Origin: Malacoraja senta
Taxonomy: Eukaryota
NCBI GenBank assembly: GCA_038087875.1
Contig: CM075993.1
Span: 8,558,001-8,622,000 of the forward strand
DNA: 64,000 bases
Reading direction: 5' to 3'
The notes beneath the pieces are model-generated. The model saw only the letters and a program-made list of their open reading frames with translations. It was not told where the DNA came from and did not search any database. The position numbers and the translations under genes were made by a program. Shown here in pieces: positions 5,640 to 57,354 of the stretch. Numbering within the stretch: position 1 is the stretch's first letter; each line of letters starts with the position of its first letter.

Positions 5640-6799
5640 GAATGGTAAGAGAAATCAAAGACTATTTTTCCTCTTTTATGTTGTATGTTTACTGAAGGCA
5701 TGCAGGGAAACACACAGGATGGTGAATGAGGTTGGTAAACGGCTGGGACAAATATCTGAGTGTGGTATGATGTTGGGGTGGGATTTGAAGCACATCTCAA
5801 GAGAAAGGCTCTGGGAGTGGGAACTCGGGGGCTGCACAGTGTCGCACCTCACAGCTCCAGACACAGCACCAGGCTCCATCCTCACCTCTGGTGCACTCTG
5901 TGTGGAGTTTACACGTTCTCCCTATGACTCTGTCTGCTCCCACATCTCAAATATGTATAGGTTAATGGGCTGCTGTAAATTTCCCCTGGTGCAGGGGAGT
6001 GGTAAAATCTGGGGGAACTTGATGCGAATGTGGAGAAAATAAAAGGAATCAGTGGTAAAAGGGCATGTTTCCATGCTAACTATGAATGATAAGGTGTTCA
6101 GAAGTGGAAGACAAAATGTTCTTGGCCTCGTGGTAGCATTACTGATTCAGGCAGCTGTTAGAGCTCTGGTGAGTCAATGTCCTTGTGGGGACAAAATCCA
6201 GCGGGTTAAAATTCAGAATCATGATTGGACCAGATAATCCACTGAGGGTATTGTAAGGTAAGAGGGGAAAGATTTAATAAGAACCCAAGAGGCAGCTTTT
6301 TCACACAGAAGGTGGTGGGTTTATGAAAGTGAGCTGCCAGAGGAAGTAGTTCAGGCAGTTCCAATAACAACATTTAAAATACATTGGGACAGTTACATCG
6401 ATAGGAAAGGCAAACAATAGATAAATGGACAAATTGGGCCAAAAGGGCTGTTTCCATGCTGTATGACTCTAAGGAAGTATTATTTAGGGATGTAAATAGC
6501 TGGTGGTAAGAAAAGAGATGGGGCCAAGGATTTTCTGGAGCTTAGTGATTACTTTTAAAGGCATTTACCAAGGAAGAGGATGCTACCAAGAAGGGGAGGC
6601 GGTGGAGATGATTCAGGGGGGTGGATGCTATTATGGAGCTATCAGAGAGCTGTGCTTAAAACAAAATAGAGGGGAAGGGCCTGGGCCTGACTGCTGGGGA
6701 TTGTGCTAGAGGTTGCGATGGACTTGCCACGACTACCACTTCTTTGGTGTGGAGGAGGTGACAGAAGTAATTGGCAAGTGTGACGCTCACAGCCAGGTA

Positions 6800-8127
6800 C
6801 AGGGCCCTCCATAATGTTTGGGACAAGGACCCGTCATTTATTTATTTGCCTCTGTACTCCACAATTTGAGATTTGTAATAGAAAAAAAATCACATGTGGT
6901 TAAAGTGCACATTGACATCAGCCAAACCTTAGGCTTACCAAAATCAACTGTTTGGAACATCATTAAGAAGAAAGAGAGCACTGGTGAGCTTACTAATCGC
7001 AAAGGGACTGGCAGGCCAAGGAAGATCTCCACAGCTGATGACAGAAGAATTCTCTCTATAATAAAGAAAAATTCCAAAACACCTGTCCGACAGATCAGAA
7101 ACACTATTCAGGAGTCAGGTGTGGATTTGTCAATGACCACTGTCTGCAGAAGACTTCATGAACAGAAATACAGAGGCTACACTGCAAGATGCAAACCACT
7201 GGTTAGCTGCAAAAATAGGATGGCCAGGATACAGTTTACCAAGAAGTACTTAAAAGAGCAACCACATTTCTGGAAAAAGGTCTTGTGGACAGATGATACG
7301 AAGATGAACATATCAGAGTGACCAAAGTATGGAGGAGAGAAGGAACTGCCCAAGATCCAAAGCATACCACCTCATCTGTAAAGCACGGTGGTGGGGGTGT
7401 GAAGGCCTGAGCATGTATGGTTGCTGAAGGTTCTGACTCACTTATCTTCATTGATGATACAACTGCTGATGGGAGTAGCATAATGAATTCTGAAGTGTAT
7501 AGACACATCCTATCTGCTCGAGTTCAAACAAATGCCTCAAAACTCATTGGCCAGTGGTTCATTCTACAGCAAGACAATGATCCCAAACATACTGCTAAAG
7601 CAACAAAGGAGTTTTTCAAAGCTAAAAAATGGTCAATTCTTGAGTGGCCAAGTCAATCACCCGATCTGAACCAATTGAGCATGCCTTTTATATGGTGAAG
7701 GGAAAACTGAAAGGGACTAGCCCCCAAAACAAGCATAAGCTAAAGATGGCTGCAATACAGGCCTGGCAGAGCATCACCAGAGAAGACACCCAGCAACTGG
7801 TGATGTCCATGAATCGCAGACTTCAAGCAGTCATTGCATGCAAAGGATATGCAACAAAATACTAAACATGACTACTTTCATTTACATGACATTGCCGTGT
7901 CCCAAACATTATGGTGCCCTGAAATGGGGGGGACTGTATAAACACTGCTGTAATTTCTACATGGTGAAACTAAACTGTGTAAAAATTGCCTTTATTAAAA
8001 TCTGACAATGTGTACTTTAACCACATGTGATTTTTTACAAATTTCAAATTACAAATTTCAAATTATGGAGTACAGAGGCAAATAAATAAATGTCGGGTCT
8101 TTGTCCCAAACATTATGGAGGGCACTG
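6800..8127 (+). mobile_element. Tc1/mariner DNA transposon, defective (5' deletion, frameshifts), in a ZNF609 intron
   Basis: TA flanks at 6798-6799 and 8128-8129. TIRs CAGGGCCCTCCATAATGTTTGGGAC / GTCCCAAACATTATGGAGGGCACTG. Transposase pieces GRPRK, WTDDTK, QQDNDPKH, WPSQSPDLN and GYATKY lie in shifting frames. Confidence 0.95.
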
Positions 8128-9399
8128 TAGGAAAATAGGAACAGGAGTGGATGGATGTGGTAAGCTGAAGGGCATGTTTCAGTTCAGTACAGCTCCATGA
8201 CTCTGAGTCGATCACTTGGCCGCTCAAGCCTGCTCTGCCATTCATTATTACCATCGACAGTTGTGTTTAACACTTCTGTCTCAGACAAGATGATGGTAGT
8301 CAATGTAGTTTCTCAGGGTCTATGCAGGGACCACTGGTTCTAATATACTGCGGATATGGCCGTGTAAACTAATGTTTCATGATTTGCAGCTGACGCAAAA
8401 AGTATCCTAAACAGTGAGGATAAGGAAGGGCGGAAGAAGACATAAATAGCTTTTCAGAAGGGCAAGCAAACAACAGATGGGATTTATGTTTTGGCAGGAG
8501 GAAGGAGGCGAGGCAGTATTTACACAGTTGCACAGTTCTAGTGTGTGTGGGAGCCGAGAGAGCGGAGTGTGTGTGTGTGCACAGGCATGAAAGTGGCAGT
8601 CTGTTGATAGAGTGAAGTAAATGGGCTTGGGTACAAACATCAAGGTGTCGGGTACACAACCAGGAAGGTTGCATAGGACCAATATTTAAACAAAACCTGG
8701 TTGATTTACAGCTGGGGAAGTGCGTCTAATTTTGGTCACTGCTAAAGAAACGAAGTCAAGCTCCGAGAGAGGGTGCAGAAGAGTGATGCTAGGGGCAAGG
8801 AATTTCAGATGTAATAGAATGGAGAAACCTTACCTTGGAGCAAAGGTTGAGAGAGCATTTAATAGAGGTGTACATGTTAAAGTTTCTATGGGTTGTAGCC
8901 TTAGTTGTGTTGTGAACAATGAACCCAAATGTAATGTCATCTGGAGGTCAATGCCCCTGGTAGGGTTACTTATATGGGGAAGTCAAAGGGAAGGTTATCA
9001 GACAGATAATGTTACAACTTTTAATAACTCAGCAGTAATGGAGGCAGATGAAGAGTCCCCAGTTCTGAAGAGCTTTAGCAGAGGAAGCTCTTTATACCTT
9101 GTATACCTTGCGTTAGATTTGGATTCATCGTCCACCAGGGCTTGTGAGGTTACTGGTGTGCAGTGATTGTGCTGAAAGAACTCGCAGGCAGCTCCTTCCA
9201 AACTGCCATTCCCTCCACCACAACAGAGATGGGGTTGGGTGCTCTGATCATTGATCATTCAGTCACAAATTCACATAGGCGGCCTTCATACAATGGTCAT
9301 CTTGCACTGGGGAGTGAGGATGGATGTGAAATAGGATAGTGCAGGTGTGTCTGAGATTCCTCCTTGAGATGTCTTCTGCTCAAAGCAACATGATAAAGT

Positions 9400-20280: not shown

Positions 20281-20482
20281 CATGTACCTGTCTAATTTAT
20301 TGGAAAGATTGGCATTGGAACCACCTCTACAGCTTGTTCCATGTACGCACCACCCTCTGGGTGAAGAAATTGCTGCTCGGGTCTCTTAATATTTCCTCTC
20401 TCACCTTAAACTGACTCCTTCTAGTTCTGGACTCGACCCTGGGAAAAATAACTTATCTATGCTTCTCATGATTTTGTACATA

Positions 20483-21741
20483 CAGTGCATTCAGAAAGTA
20501 TTCAGACACCTTCACCTTTTCCACATTTTGTTACGTTACAGCCTTATTCTAAAATTGATTAAATTCTTTTTTTTTTAATCATCAATCTACACACTATATC
20601 TCATAATAAAAAAGCGAAAACAGGCATTTAGAAATTTTTGCAAAGTAATTAAAAAGAAATAACTGAATATCACATTTACATAAGTATTCAGACCCTTTAC
20701 TCAGTACTTTGTTGAGGCACCTTCGACAGCGATTACAGCCTCAAGTCTTCTTGGGTATGACGCTACAAGCTTGGCACACCTGTATTTGGGTAATTTCTCC
20801 CATTCTTCTCTGCAGATCCACTCAAGCTCTGTCAGGTTGGATGGGGAGCGTCGATGCACAGCTATTTTCAGGTCCCTCCAGAGATGTTCGATCGGGTTCA
20901 AGTAGTGGGTTCAAGTAGGGTTTGAGTAGTGGCTCTGGCTGGGCCACTCAGGGACATTCACAGACTTGTCACGAAGCCGCTCCTGTGTTGTCTTGGCTGC
21001 ATGCTTAGGGTCATTGTCCTCTTGAAAGGTGAACCTCTGCCCCAGTCTGAGGTACAGAACATTCTGGAGCAGGTTTTCATCAAGGATCTCTCTGAACTTT
21101 TCTCCGTTTATCTTTCTTGGTCACCTCCCTGACCAAGGCCCTTCTCCCCCGATTGCTCAGTTTGGCCAGGCGGCCAGCTCTATGAAGCGTCCTGGTGGTT
21201 TCAAAGTTCTTCCATTTAAGAATGACGGAGGCCACTGTGCTCTTCAGGACCTGCAAAGCTGCAGAAATTGTTTTATACCCTTCCCCAGATCTGTGTATCG
21301 ACACAATCCTGTCTCGGAGGTCTACGGACAATTCCTTCGTCTTCATGGCTTGGTTTTTGCTCTGACATGCACTGTCAACTGTGGGACCTTATATAGACAG
21401 GTGTGTGCCTTTTCAAATCATGTCCAATCAATTTAATTTACCACTGCTGGACTCCAATCAAGTTGTAGAAACATCTCAAGGATAATCAATGGAAACAGGA
21501 TGAACCTAAGCTCAATTTTGAGTGTCATTGCAAAGGGTCTGAATACTTATGTAAATGTAATATTTCAGTTATCTATTTTTAAATACTTTGCAAAAATTTC
21601 TAAACACGTGTTTTTGCTTCTTCATTCTGGGGTATTGTGTGTAGATTGATGATAAAAAAAAATCATCCATTTTAAAATAAGGCTGTAACGTAACAAAATG
21701 TGGAAAAAGTGAAGGGGTCTGAATACTTTTTGAATGCACAG
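20483..21741 (-). mobile_element. Tc1 DNA transposon with internal deletion
   Basis: TA at 20481-20482 and 21742-21743. About 210-bp TIRs starting CAGTGCATTCAGAAAGTATTCAGAC. The N-terminus MKTKELSVDLRDRIV...AGRLAKLS and the C-terminus NPIEHLWRDLK...GASTKY are present; the middle is deleted at about 21116. Confidence 0.95.
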
Positions 21742-22771
21742 TACATATAACTTTATATATTCTATATCATTTGTATTTTACCTGCCATAACACAAAAGTT
21801 TTGTTCCTAAGAAACCTTGTGCCATAGAAAATTGAGTTATAAAAACAATTGAGGAAAAAGCAGTTTGAGGCTCAAGTTTCAGACTCGCAATAACAGTTAC
21901 TTTTTCCCCCACAGGATTTCCAAAATTAAAGGTCTTTATAGGTTTATTTTTGATACTGCAAACTGAAAATACTAAAGGCTGCATGTTACATTGTTTAATA
22001 TAGTATCATTGCACAAGCATCAATAGAAACAATTGCTAGTCAATTTCAATGATAATCCGTGGTGAAACTGACAAAAAAAAACGGTGCTTTTAAGACATAA
22101 TGGTGTCGGATTACTACAGGAATATTGGTGTTTTTCCTACACTTTTTTCCCCAAGCAGCTTTTTCCCTACTTGCCAATTTTCAAAGTAATTTTTTAAACG
22201 TTTCCAATCAAAATTGCCTTATAACCAATTTGGCACACATGTTCCCCTATTCATCAACAGTGTTGTATTCAATTCACAGTATGGAAACGCCCTATATAGC
22301 AGAACCACCTCGATCTCCATAAGGTCACCGCTCAGCCTCCTACGCTCCATGGAAGAAAATCCCAGGCTAAACAGCCTCTCCTTATAATGCAAGTACTGGC
22401 AACATCCTGGTGAATCTTTTCTGCATGCATTCCAGCTTGATGACATCCTTCCTCGAACAGGGCAACCAAAGGGTGTATGAATCTCAGGGTGCAAGGAATC
22501 TACCAGGGTTTAGGAATCTCTCCGAGTGCGGGGATCTTGGGGTTCAAGGACCTTTGAGGTGCAAGTATCTCAGGGTGCAGTGATCTTGAGGTATCCAGTG
22601 CAGATAAGAGATCAGTTCACTCTCCAGAATCCCACAACCCTTCTGTCAGGAGCATTGAATCCAAATAATCACAGGTCGTGTACATATAACTTTATATATT
22701 CTATATAATTTGTATTTTACCTGCCATAACACAAAAGTTTTGTTCCTAAGAAACCTTGTGCCATAGAAAAT
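21742..22771. repeat. 91-bp direct repeat pair (21742-21832 and 22681-22771)
   Basis: TACATATAACTTTATATATTCTATAT...GCCATAGAAAAT occurs twice, with one mismatch and an offset of 939 bp. Confidence 0.9.
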
Positions 22772-23409
22772 GACTGTGTGTAGCACACATGTTTAATGTG
22801 CCCTTCCCAAAGTGGTCTGATTGAATCTCCCTCCAGTAGGGGGAAGAGTTTCTCTGAGACACCTAAACCTTGTTCAGCACTCCAGTTTTAAACTTTTAAG
22901 CTCAAAGGCTGGATAATGCATTTCTCCATCTCTAGAAATCTTCAAATCCTGAGTAAATGATGCAGATTACAACTTGTTATTGAAGCTCAGCATTCCTGTC
23001 ACACATCATTAACTGTGGCTGAATAAATCCATGGAGAAGTGTTTTGATATTTGGAACTGGTAAACAATAGTCCCGTAGCAAGTGGGGCTCACGGTGCAAA
23101 GTCAGCAGTGTGTCAAAGCCCAGCCTGTTGACAGTCCACACTACCGTTATCTATTGGCATTACATTTTTGCAATGTTTTTTGATCAGATTTGAAGATCGT
23201 GGGTGTAGATTGATGATGCATGTGAATCAATCACACTTAGCCAGCATCACTAACTCTACCCCATTATAACATTTATACTAATGCCCATTCCCAGCACCGT
23301 TAGTTGAAGCAGCTAGGATGTACTGACAACACCTCGTTTTGTAATGCTGCCAAGTTACTGTGCTGATTAAAGATGTGTGTAAATCTTATACAGTTTGAAG
23401 TGATTTACA

Positions 23410-23428
23410 TGGTGTCAGAAGTGGGATT
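23410..23428 (+). promoter_or_regulatory. Primer-binding site complementary to the tRNA-Leu 3' end
   Basis: TGGTGTCAGAAGTGGGATT directly follows the 5' LTR. Its reverse complement AATCCCACTTCTGACACCA is the recalled vertebrate tRNA-Leu(CAA) 3' end. Confidence 0.85.
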
Positions 23429-24125
23429 AATGCACAGGCGGATTTCATCCTTTCCCTTCTTGACTGTGGCAATCATGGTTGAGACCCAGTCGGTGGGGTC
23501 GCTGACTGCTTCAATTACGCCTTTGGAGACCATGTCCTTCAGCATAGAGTGAACCCTGTCAGTCATGGCAAATGACAATCGGTGCAGGGCTCGGATTACG
23601 GGTGTCACATCGGGGTCAGTAATAATCTTGTAGGACACAGGCAACTTGCCTAGGTTGTTGTCGAAGAGACCAGGGAATTCATTCAGTGGATCAAAAGAAA
23701 CTTGCAGTTTGTGGACAGTTTTATCAAAGGAAATCAGCCCCAGTTCCTGACAGGCACGATTGCCAAGCAGAGTAACTGAATTAAAGTTCAACACATAGAA
23801 GGTCAATTCCCTCGTTGTTTTCTTCAGTACACATTTCAAGTTGATTTTGCCCAGAGGAACTAGTACCTCCCCACCAAAAGCATGTAAAGTGGACGCGTCC
23901 TTGACAAGTGGCTCGTTAGCTCTAATCTTGTTAAAAAGGTTGATTGACATTGTGTTAACCTTCACGCCAGTATCCAATTTCGCGCCAAAAACAACATTGT
24001 TTACAGATATCGTCACTGTAGGATCAGAGTTCTTGGCAGCAGCACGCTGTAACGTGTAAACAGTCGGGTCGTCTTGCGAGTTAATTGGAATATATTCGGG
24101 GGCGGCTTCGAGCTGGAAATGGGGA
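23423..24125 (-). pseudogene. Inverted Gypsy protease and RT N-terminal segment
   Basis: The minus-strand ORF contains aspartic protease KLDTG and the RT start GVIEAVSDPTDWVS...EIRLCINP, in opposite orientation to the LTRs and the rest of pol. Confidence 0.9.
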
Positions 24126-24231
24126 GTCAGTATGTTGCCGTCTCCTGAGATGGCCAGAGTTATCGCTCGAGGAAGCGGTGCACGCATGTAGAACAGCTGA
24201 ACTTGTCGATCCCATAGACATTTCGCATGAA

Positions 24232-26429
24232 AGCTCAATCCTGACAAGTGCAAGTTCAGGGTTCCAGTGGTCTCCTACGTCGGCCACATCTTCACCCCTG
24301 ATGGCCTCAAACCGGATCCGAAGAAAACTACTGCCATCACAGAAATGCCTGCACCCACTGACGTGAAAGGCCTGCAACGTTTCCTGGGCATGGTAAACTA
24401 TCTAGGAAAGTTCATACCAAACCTCAGCGAACTAAGCTCCACACTGCGGCAGCTGACCAAAAAGGACACTGCATGGTCATGGTTCCAGCAACATCAGGTT
24501 GCCTTTGATGTTCTAAAATCCAAACTGACCAGTGCACCGACCCTGACGTTTTTCGACCTGAAACGTCCGGTGGTGATCACCTGCGATGCCTCAAAATTCA
24601 GGCTCGGCGCAGCCTGCCTGCAACCGTCTGATGATGGCACCCTACTACCTGTCGCATATGCCTCTCGCACCATGACCGACACGGAGCAGCACTACGCGCA
24701 AATCGAAAAGGAACTGCTGGCTGTTGTCTTTGCCTGCTCCAAATTCCACGACTTCGTCTATGGCAACACGTTCACGGTTGAGATGGACCACCAACCACTG
24801 GTGACAATCCTGAACAAGCCTATCCATGCCGCTCCAGCTTGTTTGCAGCGCATGATGATGCAGCTGCAGCGGTACGACTTCTCTATTACCTACACAAAGG
24901 GTAAGGACATGCATGTCGCTGACACACTCTCTCGTGCTCCTCGAGCATCTTGCGAACAACACCTGCATGAACGGGAGAATTTCACGGTTCTCGGTGTCGG
25001 TCTAATCTCCAGCAAGCAACTGCGCATTCTAGCCGCGCACACTGCTAATGATGATACGTTTCAAGCCCTCTCATCCATCATCAAAACAGGCTGGCCAGAC
25101 AAACAATCCAACACGCCCACAGAGGTGCAGCCGTACTTCTTGGTCCGTGATGAACTGGTGGTACAGGATGGTGTTGTCGTTAAGGGTCACAAGGTAGTGG
25201 TACCTTCATCGCTACAAGACGAGTACTTCAAATAGGTACACAGCGGTCACCCAGGAGCCGACTCCACACTGGCACGCGCCCGGGATCTGTTCTACTGGCC
25301 CGGAATGGCCACGTACATCCGGGACCGCGTAGCCTCCTGCCCCACTTGCAACAATCTTGTGCCTCATCAGCAGCGGCAACCCCTTCTGCAACAACCTCCA
25401 CCAGCACTGCCTTGGTTGTCGCTGGCTGCGGACATTTTCGAATGGTGCGGTAAGCACTACCTCGTTCTGGTCGACTCATTTTCCAACTGGTTTGAACTTG
25501 ACCAACTGACCTCCCTCACGTCCGAGATGGTCATCAAGAAGCTGAAAAGACATTTCTCAGACCATGGCGCTCCTGTCATTCTGAGAACCGACAACGGTCC
25601 ACAGTTCACCAGCCACTTGTTCAAGCTTTTCGCAGACCGATGGAACTTCCAGCACGTCACAAGCAGTCCCCAGTATCCACAGAGTAATGGACTCGCTGAA
25701 CGCGCTGTCAGAAGCGCCAAGCACTTGCTGGAGGGAGCGCGCATTTCAAAGTCAGACGTCTATCTCGATCTCCTGAATCTCAGAAACATCGCAAGAGACG
25801 GAACCTTGGGGTCACCAGCACAGCGGCTGCTGTCGAGGGTGACGAGGTCTCCGGTCCCCGTCGCACAACAGCAGCTGGTCCCTCGGGTGTTGAAGCCCGC
25901 CACTATCCAGCAACGTCTCCAAGAGAAGCACGACATCCAGAAACGGTCATATGACAGTTCCAGCAGACCACTCCAGCCTCTACTGCCGGGCCAGGTCGTC
26001 TGTCTACGAACTTCAACTGGACATTCTCGTCTGGGCGTTGTTGTACGCCCGACTGATGAGCCACGATCGTACCTTGTGGACTGTGAGGGAGCAGTATACC
26101 GGAGAAGTCGACAACACCTGCTTGCTGTGAAGGAGCCCCGACCACCGCCTGCTGATCCCTATGCTCCGCCGCTCCAGTTCCAGCCGCCTTTCGCAATGTC
26201 ACCCGCCCGTCCCCGCATGCCTTGCACCCCCCCACGTCCCTCGGTCTCCACTAACCACGGGGTTACACCCACCGCATGTTTCCCCCCTCGGTCACCACAA
26301 TCCTCTCCCGTGCGATTTTCACCTTCAGCCTCTCCGTCTAATCCTTCAGTGGAGGGAGGGGATGGTTGGGTCCGCACGCGCTCGGGCCCTGTGAGTAGAC
26401 CACCAGACAGGTATGGCGAGTATGTTTAA
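24232..26429 (+). pseudogene. Gypsy pol remnant: RT C-terminus, RNase H and integrase, with one in-frame stop at 25233-25235
   Basis: Motifs LNPDKCKF, FLGMVNY, CDAS, YAQIEKELLAV and ADTLSR; HHCC zinc finger (HSGH...CPTC); integrase D-D-E (AADIF, TDNGPQF, GLAERAV). Confidence 0.93.
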
Positions 26430-27701
26430 TACACTTCCTTTCCACATTTAATCTTTAGGGGGAAGGATGTAGATTGATGATGCATGTGAATCAATCACAC
26501 TTAGCCAGCATCACTAACTCCACGCCATTATAACATTTATACTAACGCCCATTCCCAGCACCGTTAGTTGAAGCAGCTAGGATGTACTGACAACACCTCA
26601 TTTTGTAATGCTGCCAAGTTACTGTGCTGATTAAAGATGTGTGTAAATCTTATACAGTTTGAAGTGATTTACAGTGGGAACTGAACGTTCCTTGTGATGT
26701 GCTTGCGATTGGAATGAGGGAGCCAGTGGCTTCATGTATGTCAGCATTGTGTTATTTTGGATCTTGGCCACGTTGTGTTTGAAGCACCCACATGACCAAG
26801 AGCCCAGCCCTGTTGTTGACAGGCAAAGAGCAGACTGAGTGAGCGATGCAGAAACCAAACCTGGGCTTGTGATCAGGCAACATAAAGGCATTGGTCTGGA
26901 AACAGATGAAATGGGGCTGAGATGTAACCAAAACTGGGAGAGAAATCCAGCAGGAGCAATTTTCATTCATTCTGGGAACTCACATTCTCAGCCTCCTTAA
27001 GTTGTGTGAACAGCTTATCCACACAACCCCCGCCATTAGCCACTGAGGCAGACAAGGTGTAGAGCTGGAGTGGGAGGAATGAGGCCATGCGAAGACCAGG
27101 AGATGAGGGGGTGGGGGGGGGGGGGAGGGAAGGGAAGTTAGAGGGGGATTGAAGTGAGGAAACATGGCAGGTTTAAACCCGTGAGCCAGTGTGTTGGATG
27201 AGGGACAAGAAAGGTGGTGTTGGAGAATGTGTGAAAGTCTGAGGAGAGGTTGAAAGTTTTGAGGAGGGTGACAGAACTTGACCCTGAGAAATCCAACTCA
27301 GGAAAGGGTAATTTCCGGTTCTGTGCAAATAATCCAACCATGGAGAATCATCGTGGGAGATGTGATGAAGGACAGGCAACTCCTTGGTCCACTGGGTCAG
27401 TCCATATCTCACCGCCCTCACTCCACCACGTTTTGTGCTCCTTAGTTTGCATTTTCACTCATTAACTGCCCTCAGTAACCAGCTCATGACAACTTATCTT
27501 GAAAGCAACCCTGGCCTCTCCCTTCATTTCTGATTTCATTAAGCACCAGGCCTTAATCTCAAACACCATTACTGAATTCATCACTTCTGGCTGTCTGCCT
27601 TCCACAGCCTCCAACGGTATCATTTCCCGGCCCCGCACAGCCCGTTTTTACATTCTCCCCAAAATCCACAATCACAACTGCCCTGGCAACCCATTGTTTC
27701 T

Positions 27702-28922
27702 CAAATACACTCAAATACACCTGGACCATTTCCGACACTTCCCTACCATTCCTTGACCTCACTATCTCCATCGCAGGTGATAGACTTCTTACCGACATCC
27801 ACTACAAACCTACCGACTCCCATGGCTATCTGGACTACACTTCTTCCCACCCTGCTTCCTGTAAGGACTCCATCCCCCACTCCCAATTCCTCCGTCTATG
27901 CCCCATCTACTCCCAGGATGAGGCGTTCCACACCAGGGCATCCGAAATGTCCTCATTCTTCAGGGAACGGGGGTTCCCCTCCTCCACCATACATGAGGCT
28001 CGCACCAGGGTCTCTGCCATACCCCGCAACACTGCTCTCTCTCCCCATCCCCCACTCACAACAAGGGCAGAGTCCCCCTAGTCCTCACCTTTCACCCCAC
28101 CAGCCGTCACATACAAGTGATCCTCCGTCAGTTTTGCCACCTCCAACGTGACCCCACCACTCGCCACATCTTCCCATCTCCCCCCATGTCTGCCTTCCGC
28201 AAAGACCGCTCCCTCCGTAACTCCCTTGTCAATTCTTCCCTTCCCTCCCGTACCACCCCCTCCCCGGGTACTTTCCCTTGCAACCGCAAGAGATGCAACA
28301 CTTGTCCCTTCACCTCTCCCCTCGACTCCATTCAAGGACCTAAGCAGTCGTTCCAGGTGCGACAGAGGTTCACCTGCATCTCCTCCAACCTCATCTATTG
28401 CATCCGCTGCTCTAGATGCCAGCTCATCTACATCGGTGAGACCAAGCGGAGGCTTGGCGATCGTTTCGCCGAACACCTCCGGTCGGTCCGCAATAACCAA
28501 CCTGACCTCCCGGTGGCTCAGCACTTCAACTCCCCCTCCCATTCCGTATCTGACCTCTCTGTCCTGGGTCTCCTCCATGGCCACAGCGAGCAACACCGGA
28601 AATTGGAGGAAATCCACCTCATATTCCGCTTGGGCAGTCTACATCCTGGGGGCTTGAACATTGAATTCTCCCAATTCTGCTAGCCCTTGCTGTCCCCTCC
28701 CCTTCATCAGCCCTCTGGTTGTCTCCTCCCCTCCCCCAGCCCTCGGGCTCCTCCTCCGCCTTTTTTCCTTTCTTCTCCTCACCCCCTATCAGTCTGAAGA
28801 AGGGTATCGTCCCGAAACGTTGCCTATTTCCTTCGCTCCATAGATGCTGCTGCACCCGCTGAGTTTCTCCAGCATTTTTGTGTACCTTCGATTTTCCAGC
28901 ATCTGCAGTTCCTTCTTTAACA
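27702..28922 (+). mobile_element. Younger 5'-truncated Penelope-like element with an open GIY-YIG endonuclease region
   Basis: ORF 28117-28683 has NLIYCIRCSRCQLIYIGETKRRLGDRFAEH and ends GLNIEF. Flanked by the 15-bp duplication CAACCCATTGTTTCT (27687-27701 and 28923-28937). Confidence 0.92.
28790..28826 (+). ncRNA. Minimal type I hammerhead ribozyme motif in the PLE terminal repeat
   Basis: CTGAAGA (28794-28800), stem II GGG/CCC, GAAA (28814-28817), then CGTT. Matches the CUGANGA...GAAA core with the short palindromic stem III known from Penelope elements. Confidence 0.7.
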
Positions 28923-31899
28923 CAACCCATTGTTTCTGCCTGCTCCTGTCCCATGGAAATGATTTCCACGTACCTCGACTGCATCCTATTCCCCCTGGTC
29001 CAATCTCTCCCAACCTATGACCAAGATACCTCACATGCCCTTCGTCTCTTTAATGACTTTTGCTTTCCGTGCCCCCACTCCCTCATCTTTACTATCGACG
29101 TTCAGTTACTCAACACCTCCCTCCCTCACCAGGAAGGCCTTAACGCCCTCTGTTTCTTCCTCGACCACAGAACCATCCAATTTCCCTCTACTAACAGTCT
29201 ACTCTGCCTAGCAGAGCTGGTCCTCCCCTCAATAACTTCTCCATTGACTCCTCCCACTTCCTCCAAGTCCAAGGCGTGGCTATGGGCACCCGCATGGGCC
29301 CCAGCTATGCCTGCCTCTTTGTACGGTACGTTGAACAATCCCTGTTCCAGGCATACACTGGCCCTATCCCCGAACTCTATCTCCGTTACATTGATGACTG
29401 CATTGGTGCTACCTCCTGCACCCATGCAGAACTCATGGACTTCATCAACTTCATCACCAATTTTTATCCTGCACTCAAATTTACTTGGACATCTCCGACA
29501 CCTTCCTCCCCTTTCTTGATCTCACAGTCTCCATTACAGGTAATAGACTATTGACTGACGTCTATTACAAACCCACTGACTCCCACAACTATCTCGACTA
29601 CACTTCTTCCCACCCTGCTTCCTGCAAAGACTCTATCCCCTACTTCCAATTCCTCCGTCTACGCCACATCTGCGCCCAAGATGAGGTGTTCCATACGAGA
29701 ACATACATGATGTCCTCATTCTTTAGGGAACGTGGGCTTCCCCTCTCCCATCACAGATGAGGCCCTCACTCGTGTCTCCTCGGTACCCCACAGCCTTGCT
29801 CTTGCATCCCCTCCCCCTAGTCACAATAGAGACAGAGTCCCCCTAGTCCTTACCTTCCACCCATCAGCCGTCGCATACAACACATAATCCTCCGAAATTT
29901 CCGCCACCTCCAACGGGATCCCACCACGAGTCACATTTTCCCATCTCTACCCCTATCCACCCGCAGAGACCGTTCCCTCCGCAACTCCCTGGTTTACTCA
30001 TCCCTTCCCACCCCCTCCCCAGGTACCTACCTCTGCAACCTCAGAAGATGCAACACCTGCCGCTATACCTCCTCCCTCGACTCTGTCCAGGGACCCCGAC
30101 AGTCCTTTCACGTTAGACAGAGGTTCACTTGCACCTCCTCCAACCTCACCTACGGTATCCGTTGTTCAAGATGTGGACTCTTATACATCAGCAAGACCAT
30201 TCGCAGACTGGGCGATCGTTTCGCGGAACACCTTTGCTCAGCCCGCCTGAACCAACCTGATCACCCTACAAACAGCTTACAATGGCCTGTTTCCTTTATC
30301 ATCGTTACTTTTTTGCATTCATTGTTCTTTATCTCTCCACATCACCGTCTATATCTCATGTTTCCCTTATCCCTAACCAGTCTGAAGAAGGGTCGCGACC
30401 CTAAACGTCACCCATTTCTTCTCTCCAGAGATGCTACCTGTCCCGCTGAGTTACTCCAGCTTTTTGTGTCTATCTTCAGTTCAATGGGATCTGGCTTCAG
30501 AATCCGGTCTATGGGAATCCCTCCCTTTCTCCCTTTGCCTGTTCCCATTGACCAGAAGATGTGTTCCACAGAGATGGCACTGGGATAACAAGGCTGGTGA
30601 GTGACAAGCTCCAGCTGGAACCCTGGAAACACCTCAGCAAACAACTTGTACACAGACAAACGGAAATGTTGTTGCTCCATCCCTCTTCTCCTTTATTAGG
30701 ACCCATGGGCAATTCCTTGTAGAACAATTGGGAGGCAGGAAATTACACAACAAAGAGCCAAGGGACAAATCAACCAACACCTCATCATCAACACTCAGTA
30801 TTCATTTATCTTCTCTTTCCATCAACATCATAGAAACATACCCATTATCCTTTCAAAACATATCTTACCCTCTCGAGGCTGCATCCAATCATCCTCGAGA
30901 AAGCGGTGCCAACTTTTATGAACAGCTTACATGACAGGAGTGCCACAGGGATTCCTACAGAGCCTAAAGCACATTGTGATAGTCACATGGCACAGAAACA
31001 GGTCCTTTGGCCCACCAAGTCCCATGCCTAAGATTGAACACGCTTCGAACCCAATGTGCCTAATGATAGGTGATCTCATGCCACAGATGGTTTCATTGTT
31101 CCTAATATATAGAATGGAGGCAAAGGCCAAAATGTTGTACACTCTCCCTTAAATAAAGCAGCTCGATAGGTCATTTAAAACCTGATTATTGGATAATTGT
31201 TGAGTGGATAAAAAGAAATGGAATTAAAGCAGGTGAACATACTTGAGAAAGACAGGCAGGAACGGGGTACTGATTGGGGATGATCAGCCATGATCACATT
31301 GAATGGCGGTGCTGGCTCGAAGGGCCAAATGGCCTACTCCTGCACCTATTGTCTATTGTCTATTGTCTAAGACATCGGCCCTGAACTCACTAAATTGTAA
31401 ACAGGAATGAGGAAACAATTACCCTGCCTCTGATTCTATTTTCCTAATAGCTGATTTGTGTTGCATTTGAATTTAAACAAAGCACTGTGTGCAAGCATTC
31501 TTTTATATATGAATGCAAATGCAAGGCATAGACAAATTTCTCTGCCAGTGGATTCACCACAAGTCATGTTTCAGAGTGGACCAGTGTCAAGTGAGATTGC
31601 ACTATGCTTGATTTTAATCTTTCCCGGTGCGATGGTGCTCTGCATCTCCAACAAACATCCTGATGGAGCGGTGCTAATCCACAGGGTAAGTAGGAAATTG
31701 ATCAACTGTAGCAACTCCCCTTCAGAATCACAATCAGCCCAACCTCACTGTACCGACTGTACATGGATGGGGTGTGGCTGAAGGATGGGGTGTAGCTAAA
31801 GACCCTTCCCATATTTTGTAGCTACCTCTGGGCAAAAAGCAGACATCAGCGATCAGAGATACTGAGAAATGTCAGAAATGTGAGTTGCTGAAATTATGA

Positions 31900-44475: not shown

Positions 44476-45496
44476 GGTATAGTCTTTCTACTGACTGAAT
44501 AGCACGCAACAAAAAAGCTTTTCACTATACCTCGGTAAACGTGACAATAAACAAAACTAGACCTCTCGTATGCAAAGGGTGAATTGCCCGATCTCCCTAC
44601 GTACCTCATTGCAGTCTATGCATTTTTTTTACCTGCACTTTCTTTGTATCTGCAACATTATATTCTACACTCTGTTTATTTTCTCTTTTCACTACCCGAT
44701 GTATTCACGTAAGATATGATTTGCCTGAATAACACATAAAACAATTTTTTTTCATTGTAAATCAGTACACGTGACAATAATAAACCAATATCGATAACCT
44801 GTGATCCTCCGCTCTCTAAGCAGTGTTGAAGTCCCTCATGCCAGGAATCTTTTTTGGTAAATTCCTTGTCCTTTAAAAAACTTTCATTTATTTTGTACAA
44901 TCTGGCATCCAGAATGAGATGTTTCTGGACTAGTGTTTTATGAAGATTTATTGTGATTTCTTTGCTGTTGTACATTTTGCTTGCTAAAGGCCTGAGGTCC
45001 TATATCCTATCTCAACCTGCCCTGTCATTTTCAAGGACTAGTATACATTTACAAGCAGATGTCTGTTCTTGTACCTTTTTTCAGAATTCTGCTCTCTGGT
45101 TTATATTATCTCATTCCGTTATTCCCGCAAAAAAATAACACTTTTAAGTTCCCAGCATTAAACTTCATCTGCAATCTACCTGACCCTTCCATGAGTCTCT
45201 ATAACTCATTTATTACTGTACTCATATAGTGTAAGTGGTACTAAACATGGATGATAGCATAGCAGAGCACATAAAGTATTCTTCCAATTATGTACAGCAT
45301 AATTTTTGTTTATGTGAGTTATTTGCCCACCAACCTTATCTATGTCTGTGTTTTCCCGTTTATCCTGTGGCTGTTTTGCAGGTAGTTAAACAGTGACATG
45401 CTCTGAGATCCTGTCATAACCTGTGGTATTCTCCACCTTCCATTCTCTCTCATTATCCCAGCACCAGACAGCAGCCTAAACAGGAGCTGCCTGATA

Positions 45497-47110
45497 CAGT
45501 GGCTTGCAAAAGTTTTCATACCCCTTGAACTTTTCCACATTTTGTCACGTTACAACCACAAACGTAAATGTATTTTATTGGGATTTTATGTGATAGACCA
45601 ACACAAAGTGGTGCATAATTGTGAAGTGGAAGGAAAATGATACATGGTTTTCAAATTTTTTTACAAATAAAAAACTGAAAAGTGTCGCGTGCAAAAGTAT
45701 TCAGCCCCCCTGAGTCAATACTTTGTAGAACCACCTTTCGCTGCAATTACAGCTGCAAGTCTTTTGGGGTATGTCTCTACCAGCTTTACACATCTAGAGA
45801 CTGATATTTTTGCCCATTCTTCTTTGCAAAATAGCTCAAGCTCAGTCAGATTGGATGGAGAGCGTCTGTGAACAGCAATTTTCAAGTCTTGCCAGAGATT
45901 CTCAATTGGATTTAGGTCTGGACTTCGACTGGGCCATTCTAACACATGAATATGCTTTGATCTAAACCATTCCATTGTAGCTCTGGCTGTATGTTTAGGG
46001 TCGTTGTCCTGCTGGAAGTTGAACCTCCGCCCCAGTCTCAAGTCTTTTGCAGACTCTAACAGGTTTTCTTCCAAGATTGCCCTGTATTTGGCTCCATCCA
46101 TCTTCCCATCAACTCTGACCAGCTTCCCTGTCCCTGCTGAAGAAAAGCATCCCCACAGCATGATGCTGCCACCACCATGTTTCACAGTGGGGATGGTGTG
46201 TTCAGGGTGATGTGCAGTGTTAGGTTTCCGCCACACATAGCGTTTTGCATTTAGGCCAAAAACTTCAATTTTGGACTCATCTGACCAGAGCACCTTCCTC
46301 CACATGTTTGCTGTGTCCCCCACATGGCTTGTGGCAAACTGCAAACGGGACTTCTTATGGCTTTTTTTCAACAATGGCTTTCTTCTTGCCACTCTTCCAT
46401 AAAGGCCCGATTTGTGGAGTGCACGACTAATAGTTGTCCTGTGGACAGATTCTCCCACCTGAGCTGTGGATCTCTGCAGCTCCTCCAGAGTTACCATGGG
46501 CCTCTTGGCTGCTTCTCTGATCAATGCTCTCCTTGCCCGGCCTGTCAGTTTAGGTGGACGGCCATGTCTTGGTAGGTTTGCAGTTGTGCCATACTCTTTC
46601 CATTTTCGGATGATGGATTGAACAGTGCTCCGTGAGATGTTCAAAGCTTGGGATATTTTTTTATAACCTAACCCTGCTTTAAACTTCTCCACAACTTTAT
46701 CCCTGACCTGTCTGGTGTGTTCCTTGGGCTTCATGATGCTGTTTGTTCACTAATGTTCTCTAACAAACCTCTGAGGCCTTCACAGAACAGCTGTATTTAT
46801 ACTGAGATTAGATTACACACAAGTGGACATTTACTAATTAGGTGACTTCTGAAGGCAATTGGTTGCACTGGATTTTATTTAGGGGTATCAGAGTAAAGGG
46901 GGCTGAATACTTTTGCACGCGACACTTTTCAGTTTTTTATTTGTAAAAAAATTTGAAAACCATGTATCATTTTCCTTCCACTTCACAATTATGCGCCACT
47001 TTGTGTTGGTCTATCACATAAAATTCCAATAAAATACATTTACGTTTGTGGTTGTAACGTGACAAAATGTGAAAAAGTTCAAGGGGTATGAATACTTTTG
47101 CAAGCCACTG
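45497..47110 (-). mobile_element. Full-length Tc1 (IR/DR type, Passport-like) DNA transposon, 1614 bp
   Basis: TA duplication at 45495-45496 and 47111-47112. 213-bp TIRs (45497-45709, 46898-47110) with 4 mismatches counted by eye; outer and inner direct repeats TGCAAAAGTATTCA. Confidence 0.98.
45715..46734 (-). CDS. Intact Tc1 transposase, 339 aa, DD34E
   Basis: Uninterrupted ATG-to-stop ORF. Paired-like HTH region, GRPPK linker, basic ARRKPLLKK, and WSDE / QQDNDPKH / SPDLNPIE with 34 residues between the second D and the E. Confidence 0.96.
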   Translation of the reverse strand: MKPKEHTRQVRDKVVEKFKAGLGYKKISQALNISRSTVQSIIRKWKEYGTTANLPRHGRPPKLTGRARRALIREAAKRPMVTLEELQRSTAQVGESVHRTTISRALHKSGLYGRVARRKPLLKKSHKKSRLQFATSHVGDTANMWRKVLWSDESKIEVFGLNAKRYVWRKPNTAHHPEHTIPTVKHGGGSIMLWGCFSSAGTGKLVRVDGKMDGAKYRAILEENLLESAKDLRLGRRFNFQQDNDPKHTARATMEWFRSKHIHVLEWPSRSPDLNPIENLWQDLKIAVHRRSPSNLTELELFCKEEWAKISVSRCVKLVETYPKRLAAVIAAKGGSTKY

Positions 47111-47179
47111 TAGGTATATGAAAAAACTTGTAATGATGGGGAAGGGCGGGCTGTGCTTTTGGCTGGATTATTCATGTAT

Positions 47180-48083
47180 AGGGGGGTTGCACGTAAGGTC
47201 ACCGGGTCATAGGGCTTGACGCACGGAGCCGCTCAATCCATCTGGAGGACATCCGTCACTTCCGGTTTATGTTATTAATACAAGAAACGCGTACTTTCCT
47301 ACCTGTTAAAAACCGCCAAAATGTTGGATTTTTTCGCTGTAAAAAATTGTGGAAGTCGGGGTAAGTGTGAGAGACATGTACCCAACTTCAGAATTCCAAA
47401 AGTGAAGCGAAATGAAGGTAAAGAGAAGCGAGAGCTGGAGGGACAACAGCAGCTAAACTGCTTGGCGAACATTGGCCGTGCAGATATCGGAATTGGAAAT
47501 ATTGGGAATTATCGCGTTTGCTCACTGCATTTCATCAACAGTAAGGCATTATTTGTGTTTTTTCTTGATTCCTTTGGTATCTAAGAAGTCTCAGAAGTGA
47601 TAAATCTGGCTGTAAATTTTGCTTCAGAGGGGTTTTCTTTTTGTATGTAAAAACCCACTTGAGAACCATGGGCGATTTTAAAATTTTACAGCCAGATTTA
47701 TCACTTCTGAAACTTTTTAGATGCCAAAGGAATCAAGAAAACCCCCACAAATAATGCCTTTCTGTTGATGAAATGCAGTGAGCAAACGGCCAAGGTACGC
47801 CAAGCACTTTGGCTGTTGTTGTCCCTTCAGCTCTCGCTTCTATCTACCGTTATTTCTACTCACTTTTGGAATTCTGAAGTAGGCTAAATGTCTCTCACGC
47901 TTATCCCGATTTCCATAATTATTTACAGCGCAAAAACTGACAATTTCGGCGGGTTTTAACGGGCCCGCTACGCTGGAAACAATGGTAAGTGCTTGCCTTC
48001 AGTTCATCGCGTGTACTCCACTTGGCGTAGCGTAGCAACAGCACGGGTCATGGGTCGTGACCCGACTGCCGTGAAACCTCCCT
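47180..48083. mobile_element. Palindromic MITE-like element with THAP-domain remnants (ISL2EU/Harbinger-like)
   Basis: AT flanks at 47178-47179 and 48084-48085. Termini AGGGGGGTTGCACG / CGTGAAACCTCCCT. Long internal inverted arms at about 47300-47620 versus 47675-47960. ORF 47321-47584 reads AVKNC...FRIPK...RVCSLHFI. Confidence 0.8.
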
Positions 48084-56179: not shown

Positions 56180-57354
56180 ATCGACAAGGTCCCACATAAG
56201 AGATTAGTATACAAACTTAAAGCACATGGTATTGGGGGTTCAGTATTGATGTGGATAGAGAACTGGCTGGCAAACAGGAAGCAAAGAGTAGGAGTAAACG
56301 GGTCCTTTTCAGAATGGCAGGCAGTGACTAGTGGGGTACCGCAAGGCTCAGTGCTGGGGCCCCAGCTATTTACAATATATATTAATGATTTGGATGAGGG
56401 AATTGAATGCAACATCTCCAAGTTTGCGGATGACATGAAGCTGGGGGGGAGTGTTAGCTGTGAGGAGGATGCTAGGAGGCTGCAAGGTGACTTGGATAGG
56501 CTGGGTGAGTGGGCAAATGCATGGCAGATGCAGTATAATGTGGATAAATATGAGGTTATCCACTTTGATGGCAAAAACAGGAAAGTAGACTATTATCTAA
56601 ATGGTGGCCGATTAGGTAAAGGGGAGATGCAACGTGACCTGGGTGTCATGGTACACCAGTCATTGAAAGTAGGCATGCAGGTGCAGCAGGCAGTGAAGAA
56701 AGCGAATGGTATGTTAGCATTCATAGCAAAAGGATTTGAGTATAAGAGCAGGGAGGTTCTACTGCAGTTGTACAGGGTCTTGGTGAGACCACACCTGGAG
56801 TATTGCGTACAGTTTTGGTCTCCAAATCTGAGGAAAGACATTCTTGCCATAGAGGGAGTACAGAGAAGGTTCACCAGATTGATTCCTGGGATGTCAGGAC
56901 TTGCATATGAAGAAAGACTGGATAGACTCGGCTTGTACTCGCTAGAATTTAGAAGATTGAGGGGGGATCTTATAGAAACTTACAAAATTCTTAAGGGGTT
57001 GGACAGGCTAGATGCAGGAAGATTGTTCCCGATGTTGGGGAAGTCCAGGACAAGGGGGCACAGTTTAAGGATTAAGGGGAAATCCTTTAGGACCGAGATG
57101 AGAAAAACATTTTTCACACAGAGAGTGGTGAATCTCTGGAACTCTCTGCCACAGAAGGTAGTTGAGGCCAGTTCATTGGCTATATATAAGAGGGAGTTAG
57201 ATGTGGCCCTTGGGGCTAAAGGGATCAGGGGGTATGGAGAGAAGGCAGGTACAGGATACTGAGTTGGATGATCAGCTATGATCATATTGAATGGCGGTGC
57301 AGGCTCGAAGGGCCGAATGGCCTACTCCTGCACCTATTTTCTATGTTTCTATGT
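56180..57354 (+). mobile_element. Young 5'-truncated CR1/HER1-like LINE with an open RT C-terminal frame
   Basis: About 360 uninterrupted codons: DKVPH, GVPQGSVLGP, KFADD, RPHLEYC. (CTATGTTT)n tail. Confidence 0.95.

What the first reader, a model, noticed from the sequence alone, without database searches (positions are those of the whole stretch)
45497..47110. Complete Tc1 element with an intact DD34E transposase: candidate active vertebrate transposon
Seen in the sequence: TA TSD, 213-bp IR/DR TIRs with only about 4 mismatches, and an unbroken 339-aa ORF with all catalytic residues. Established: nearly all vertebrate Tc1 copies are defective, and the protein closely resembles my recollection of the flatfish Passport transposase. 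Inferred: a recent invasion, possibly by horizontal transfer, and a possible natural gene-transfer tool. Some residues look off-consensus (ESK vs ETK, PSRS vs PSQS, CVK vs CAK) and one outer DR has a substitution, so this copy may be impaired.
Basis: partly seen in the sequence, partly recalled or inferred. Interest (0 to 1): 0.7.

Follow-up and report, generated by a model that had tools for sequence, protein, structure and literature searches.

The report
Skate Tc1 transposon, likely horizontally acquired
This is a complete but already mutating copy of a cut-and-paste transposon that is very abundant in skates and closely matches elements of bony fish and frogs, so the family likely jumped between species, but nothing here shows that this copy still moves.

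Summary
In detail: 1,614 bp, TA on both sides, 213-bp IR/DR arms with 4 mismatches, and an open 339-aa DD34E frame.

The host is a batoid, likely a skate. A neighbouring CR1 protein is 90-94% identical to Leucoraja proteins but 51-53% to a frog and a teleost. The transposase is 89-94% identical to teleost and Xenopus proteins, and an amphibian-labelled RNA run holds the element about 96% identical in DNA. Horizontal transfer is therefore likely.

It is not Passport itself (86%). It sits in Passport's sister clade, probably Eagle/Glan.

The family is highly repeated in all six skate-like organisms laid, with lineage-specific variants. This site is likely empty in related organisms B and C.

This copy carries 8-11 private changes, including four missense changes (T154S, T239N, Q270R, A316V) and one in a direct repeat. 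It looks like a neutrally decaying copy, millions of generations old at a shark mutation rate. No insertion polymorphism was seen, but only one sample was informative.

Verdict: a new member of a known kind in a host lineage for which my searches found no report. Present activity is not shown.

The parts
45495..45496 (.). TA target-site duplication, left
   Evidence: the matching flank of organism B stops aligning exactly here
45497..45709 (-). 3' terminal inverted repeat (213 bp); outer DR about 45499-45526 with the odd base at 45514; inner DR about 45684-45711
45666..45696 (+). Inward-facing AATAAA (45666-45671) and a poly(A) addition point near 45693-45696; present in both arms
   Evidence: 40 RNA reads of organism J end in poly(A) behind 45696; hexamer position
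45715..46734 (-). Transposase ORF, 339 aa: paired-like HTH, GRPP motif (58-61), second HTH, catalytic D152/D243/E278; private changes at codons 154, 239, 270, 316
46735..46897 (-). Spacer between the 5' arm and the ATG; a 3-bp TCT length variant segregates among copies at 46828
46898..47110 (-). 5' terminal inverted repeat (213 bp) with outer and inner DR; deviant bases at 46995, 47025, 47072
47111..47112 (.). TA target-site duplication, right

Best explanation
This is a full-length, already mutating copy of a DD34E Tc1 transposon of the Passport-like group in a likely skate genome, from a family that likely entered skates by horizontal transfer from a bony fish or amphibian lineage and then multiplied by cut-and-paste. 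Shown: the anatomy, the very high repeat depth in six related organisms, the lineage-specific variants, and the private changes of this copy. From established Tc1 biology: transposase binds the four direct repeats, cuts the element out and inserts it at a TA, which is duplicated. Inferred: this copy was inserted after its host split from organisms B and C, has since drifted neutrally, and kept its frame open only because few mutations have struck it. Its own enzyme is likely weakened or dead (Q270R, T239N, one DR change), though untested.
For: Host: the CR1 frame at 56249-57262 has best named hits Leucoraja 85-94%, Mobula 86%, Hypanus 73-83%, Callorhinchus 72-74%, against a teleost at 53% and a frog at 51%. 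Transposase: Pangasianodon 93.9% over 196 aa, Pangasius 89-92%, Oreochromis 90.0%, Xenopus tropicalis 89.7%, Cynoglossus 89.1%. Amphibian-labelled RNA run X16 covers the 20 element bins of 30, with 62 majority differences (about 96%) and zero depth on both skate flanks; synonymous difference is at most 32 of 231 sites. The two host lineages split about 473 My ago (tree file of PMC7070016). Copy-private letters: at 45788, 45926, 46019 and 46275, 98-100% of depth shows the other letter in all 7 contig runs and in 239 of 241 RNA reads. The window has its own terminal branch of 0.014 against 0 for database protein P0336. Site likely empty: organism C contig (611 nt, depth 2.58) leaves the left flank at 45494, and a contig of the same depth is laid at 47133-47136; organism B stops aligning at 45496. 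4 missense of 5 coding changes fits neutrality (77% expected, P=0.68).
Against: The host of run X16 is known only by the label 'amphibian metagenome', and it is one RNA run holding a mix of subfamilies (616 of 7,201 contigs under 90% alike). No donor is identified: the skate clade sits in an unresolved fork with catfish and other groups. The direction of transfer is inferred, not tested with a rooted topology test. I had no shark or ray genomes to test a patchy distribution directly. The empty-site joint row was not among the joints displayed (21 hidden in each lay call), so it is read from contig coordinates and equal depth. S154 is common in distant intact Tc1 proteins (22 of 34) and position 316 is variable, so two of the four changes may be harmless.
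Confidence: 0.8

Rival explanations
1. This copy is a currently active autonomous element, still transposing in its host.
For: Open frame, complete triad and 98% arms. Organism A has its own sub-lineage variants (C45686, G46921, G46224 at 63-89% of depth in A and about 1% or less in B, C, E, F), so the family moved after A split off. Element reads of both strands occur in RNA of related organism J. Passport, 86% identical, is active in native form (PMC2651795).
Against: 8-11 private changes (0.5-0.7%), equal to about 7-10 million generations at 7e-10 per generation (range 3.5-49 million; PMC10587355). R270 occurs in 1 of 241 close relatives and 1 of 34 intact-like distant ones; N239 in 0 of the six commonest residue classes of 250 close relatives and 1 of 34 distant ones. 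No daughter copies share its private letters (about 0.2% of depth or less in A). Sample X1 shows no empty allele.
Confidence: 0.08
2. The family was inherited vertically from the jawed-vertebrate ancestor and kept similar by selection, as Clark et al. proposed for Eagle/Glan among bony vertebrates.
For: PMC2651795 reads the Eagle/Glan distribution as vertical. Cartilaginous fish evolve slowly (PMC10587355).
Against: Non-coding arms and spacer and synonymous sites are also conserved (at most 45 differences in about 594 non-coding bases against run X16). The CR1 control is about 52% identical across the same split. A Xenopus protein is 97.6% identical to a tilapia one. [quoted passage not shown] Sharks and chimaera hold only 0.14% and 0.03% Tc1/mariner against 3.28% in skates (PMC12361510).
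Confidence: 0.04
3. The copy is a domesticated host gene, or an assembly contaminant from a bony fish.
For: Only the open frame and the teleost-like protein.
Against: A contig of organism A joins the unique flank to the arm with 0 differences. The element is highly repeated in six related organisms. Arms and TA are retained, the site is likely empty in relatives, and the changes are mostly missense.
Confidence: 0.02

Closest known systems
Eagle (Xenopus tropicalis) / Glan (rainbow trout) subfamily of Passport-like Tc1 elements (PMC2651795)
   Same: The window falls in a 99/99 clade with X. tropicalis, Oncorhynchus, tilapia and catfish transposases, sister to Passport; about 90% aa identity to Xenopus proteins.
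   Different: The host is a cartilaginous fish. The nearest named proteins are from pangasiid catfish. The database does not label its proteins Eagle or Glan; that name is inferred from the paper's host list.
Passport / PPTN of plaice (Q9PW00)
   Same: 339 aa, DD34E, IR/DR arms, TA target; similar element ends by the paper's primers.
   Different: 86.4% aa (46 differences) and a separate 100/100 branch. Passport was shown active in cells; this copy is untested.
Sleeping Beauty SB100X (PDB 5CR4)
   Same: Same catalytic domain, E 2.5e-87, triad aligned.
   Different: A more distant family; engineered; it has T, V, Q and G where this copy has S154, N239, R270 and V316.
ZB-like element of Callorhinchus milii (PMC9777934)
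   Same: An intact DD34E Tc1 of about 1.6 kb in a cartilaginous fish.
   Different: ZB-like is a separate clade from Passport in that paper's tree, and the host is a chimaera, not a skate.

Membership tests
DD34E/Tc1 | D-D-34-E catalytic triad | tested here: met
   D152, D243, E278; 34 residues between; aligned to SB100X
DD34E/Tc1 | TA target-site duplication and terminal inverted repeats | tested here: met
   other copies also break off at the TA (loose ends at 45494-45495)
DD34E/Tc1 | Bipartite HTH DNA-binding domain with GRPR-like motif | tested here: met
   PF25787 residues 1-51, PF01498 residues 68-138, GRPP at 58
IR/DR subgroup | Arms of about 200-250 bp, each with two direct repeats | tested here: met
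   213 bp, DRs 185 bp apart
Passport proper | 98-99% identity to the plaice element, flatfish host | tested here: not met
   86.4% aa; separate branch
Eagle/Glan subfamily | Transposase groups with the X. tropicalis and trout elements, sister to Passport | tested here: met
   99/99 clade; subfamily name inferred from PMC2651795 host list
Eagle/Glan subfamily | Diagnostic arm and DNA-binding residues of Fig. 5 of PMC2651795 | not testable with these tools
   Only the figure legend is held
Currently active native transposon | Insertion polymorphic among individuals | tested here: inconclusive
   1 of 2 samples of organism A was informative and shows no empty allele; it may be the assembly's own source
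Currently active native transposon | Copy equal or near to the family majority, with daughter copies | tested here: not met
   8-11 private changes that other copies do not share
Currently active native transposon | Excision and integration in cells | not testable with these tools
   bench assay needed

The most novel reading that the evidence does not exclude
One horizontally acquired Eagle/Glan-type Tc1 lineage seeded much of the skate-specific Tc1/mariner expansion. It burst separately in sister skate lineages from different founder variants, and cleaner copies are still mobile in skates today, which would make it a native active DNA transposon of a cartilaginous fish.
Probability: 0.2. Interest if true: 0.55.

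Novelty: new member of a known kind. Interest (0 to 1): 0.33.

Why it matters
Skates carry far more Tc1/mariner DNA than sharks (3.28% against 0.14%; PMC12361510), and in the passages I saw that paper does not say where it came from. The 307-genome vertebrate transfer survey held only two cartilaginous fishes, neither a skate. This family offers a concrete, testable source: a transfer across about 470 My of host divergence, followed by lineage-specific bursts. It also argues against the published view that Eagle/Glan was inherited vertically. As a gene-transfer tool it adds little: Passport, ZB and Sleeping Beauty exist, and this copy is a poor candidate.

Tried and rejected
No host genome is held, so there was no direct copy count or age landscape. 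Summed contig depth ratios (2,600-47,000 at chosen positions) are not copy numbers; I use them only to say 'highly repeated, likely thousands'.

The metagenome scan gave 20 loci from 203 candidate stretches; the best DNA segments were 91-93% over 136-465 bp, hosts unnamed, with no donor found. The exact protein is not in the collection.

Earlier scan notes held no look-alike by sequence and no Tc1 note for this genome.

Sample X2 broke off at 45357 and says nothing on polymorphism.

PMC12400950 main text had no hit for skate, shark or related terms. The xlsx tables of PMC9777934 could not be read and its alignments are cut, so I could not compare sequences. I considered linking Q270 to the DNA-contacting Y276 of Mos1 (PMC5481204), but the positional match is recalled and not aligned here, so I do not count it. 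No structure prediction was run, because the fold is known.

Full report
Observation. The element spans 45497-47110 (1,614 bp) between two TA dinucleotides. Its arms are 213 bp with 4 mismatches, each with two direct repeats 185 bp apart. The minus strand carries an open 339-aa frame with D152, D243 and E278. Pfam gives the Sleeping Beauty HTH, the Tc3-type HTH and DDE_3, and the catalytic domain aligns to SB100X at E 2.5e-87.

Host. No genome was held. I used a CR1 reverse-transcriptase frame in the same window as marker and control. Among its best 120 hits, named ones are Leucoraja erinacea 85-94%, Mobula 86%, Hypanus 73-83%, Callorhinchus 72-74%, a teleost 53% and a frog 51%. The host is therefore a batoid, likely a skate.

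Family. Of 265 transposases compared, the closest full-length ones are unnamed database proteins at 97.9-98.5%; P0336 differs only at 154, 171, 239, 270 and 316. The closest named ones are Pangasianodon (93.9% over 196 aa), Pangasius (89-92%), tilapia (90.0%), X. tropicalis (89.7%) and tongue sole (89.1%). Passport (Q9PW00) is 86.4%. In a tree of 41 hand-picked proteins (40 database proteins plus the window), the window lies in a 99/99 clade with Xenopus, trout, tilapia and catfish proteins, sister to Passport. By the host list in PMC2651795 (I read parts 1, 3 and 4 of 5) this is likely the Eagle/Glan subfamily. The position of the skate group inside that clade is unresolved. No named cartilaginous-fish protein was among the best 120 hits, which may only reflect repeat masking.

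Abundance and lineage structure. Of 24 runs listed, 23 hold the stretch or part of it; I laid 8. Five organisms sequenced as contigs (A, B, C, E, F) carry pieces of the orthologous flank, 3-4% diverged where measurable (B 29 of 687, C 19 of 625, E 7 of 222). Organism J (RNA) shares the neighbouring skate repeat. Depth on the element is three to four orders of magnitude above the flank; the tool warns this is no copy number, so I say only that thousands of copies are likely. Variants sort by host. C45686, G46921 and G46224 make up 63-89% of depth in both samples of A and about 1% or less in B, C, E and F. A further variant at 46659 (K26Q) is 44-49% in A and 0.4% in B. G46365 (K124Q) is 100% in E and F and 0.02% in C. 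Much of the amplification thus happened after these hosts split, from different founder variants. This fits the three expansion rounds and 3.28% Tc1/mariner content reported for skates (PMC12361510, passages), though I did not measure this family's share.

Age of this insertion. In sample X1 of organism A one contig runs from the flank 24 bases into the arm with no difference and no branch at the TA. The junction is real and no empty allele is seen, but X1 may be the assembly's source. In organism C a 611-nt contig of depth 2.58 leaves the left flank at 45494 with 267 letters to spare, and a contig of the same depth is laid at 47133-47136 in the right flank: a likely empty site. In B the match ends at 45496 with at least 15 unmatched letters. 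The joint rows themselves were among those not displayed, so this is read from coordinates. The copy has 8-11 private changes (6 shown directly, 2 inferred from arm mismatches, up to 3 uncertain), or 0.5-0.7%, about a third of the per-lineage flank divergence. At the epaulette-shark rate of 7e-10 per generation (PMC10587355, passages) this is 7-10 million generations, range 3.5-49 million. The rate is borrowed from a shark, so this is only a rough scale. The insertion is young in evolutionary terms, not recent in years.

Is this copy functional? At codons 154, 239, 270 and 316 nearly all other copies read T, T, Q and A. Four missense changes of five coding changes is the neutral expectation, and five random substitutions leave the frame open 76% of the time, indels not modelled. 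Among 34 intact-like proteins out of 150 distant representatives, S154 is common (22 of 34) and 316 is highly variable, while N239 and R270 each occur once. Two changes are therefore likely harmless and two are suspect, as is the A-to-T change in one outer direct repeat. Activity is possible but not indicated. Intact frames are not rare in this superfamily: ZB has 19 intact copies of 20 full-length (PMC7913693, passages), and by my reading of Table 2 of PMC9777934, 183 genomes hold intact ZB-like copies.

Horizontal transfer. Run X16, labelled amphibian metagenome RNA, covers the whole element and neither flank nor the adjacent skate repeat. It shows 62 majority differences, about 96% identity, or about 97% after removing this copy's own and A-specific letters. 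Of 17 coding differences displayed, 8 are synonymous; even if all 24 hidden ones were too, synonymous difference is at most 0.14. Cartilaginous and bony vertebrates split about 473 My ago in the tree supplied with PMC7070016, and the CR1 control is about 52% identical over that distance. That paper also reports that DNA transposons evolve neutrally inside genomes and that Tc1/mariner dominates transfers in fish (passages). Vertical descent cannot easily give these numbers. Against over-reading: it is one run, the host is known by label only, and neither donor nor direction is established.

What is in print. Searches found no paper describing a Passport-like Tc1 in skates or its transfer. The 307-genome survey held only Callorhinchus and Rhincodon (supplement search). 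The ZB/SB survey's single cartilaginous fish is Callorhinchus, in a different clade (passages, part 2 of 6 and supplement parts 1-2); its spreadsheets could not be read and may bear on this. The library lacks most subscription journals and repeat databases such as Repbase and Dfam, where this very abundant family may well be catalogued. Tc1 transfer between teleosts and lampreys is in print (PMC3516227, search listing only).

Verdict. A real, well-formed Tc1 copy of a known kind. The family story (likely transfer into skates and separate bursts) is moderately interesting; the claim that this copy is an active element or a tool is not supported.

Noticed in passing
window 45666-45696 (and its mirror in the other arm): An inward-facing AATAAA with a CA about 21 bases downstream; 40 RNA reads of organism J carry poly(A) there. 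Host transcripts running into either end may be cut short before reaching the transposase. A further 53 reads show poly(T) before 46362, likely internal priming on transposase-sense RNA.
   Followed up: partly
window 6798-8129: An older Tc1 relic with 127-bp arms (88% alike) and a frameshifted transposase 30-44% identical to the main one.
   Followed up: partly
window 20481-21743: An internally deleted Tc1 relic with 219-bp arms (86% alike), 49-61% aa to the main transposase and similar termini.
   Followed up: partly
window 47177 to about 48085: A repeat with a long internal inverted structure (72% alike arms at 47302-47963), abundant in the skate-like runs, 66 bp from the element; possibly a non-autonomous DNA element.
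   Followed up: no
window 23201-26673: An LTR retrotransposon with 209-bp LTRs 97.6% alike and RNase H and integrase frames; a frame at 23405-24187 runs on the opposite strand, suggesting an internal inversion.
   Followed up: no
window 27708-30266: Two degenerate repeats, one with a GIY-YIG match, likely Penelope-type retroelements.
   Followed up: no
P0172 against P0130, P0169, P0197: A Xenopus tropicalis transposase is 97.6% identical to a tilapia one and about 96% to a bichir protein and a lizard fragment, which contradicts the vertical reading of Eagle/Glan in PMC2651795.
   Followed up: partly
P0056: A 68% identical Tc1 transposase labelled Escherichia coli IS630 on a 1.4-kb contig; likely contamination from a fish.
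   Followed up: no
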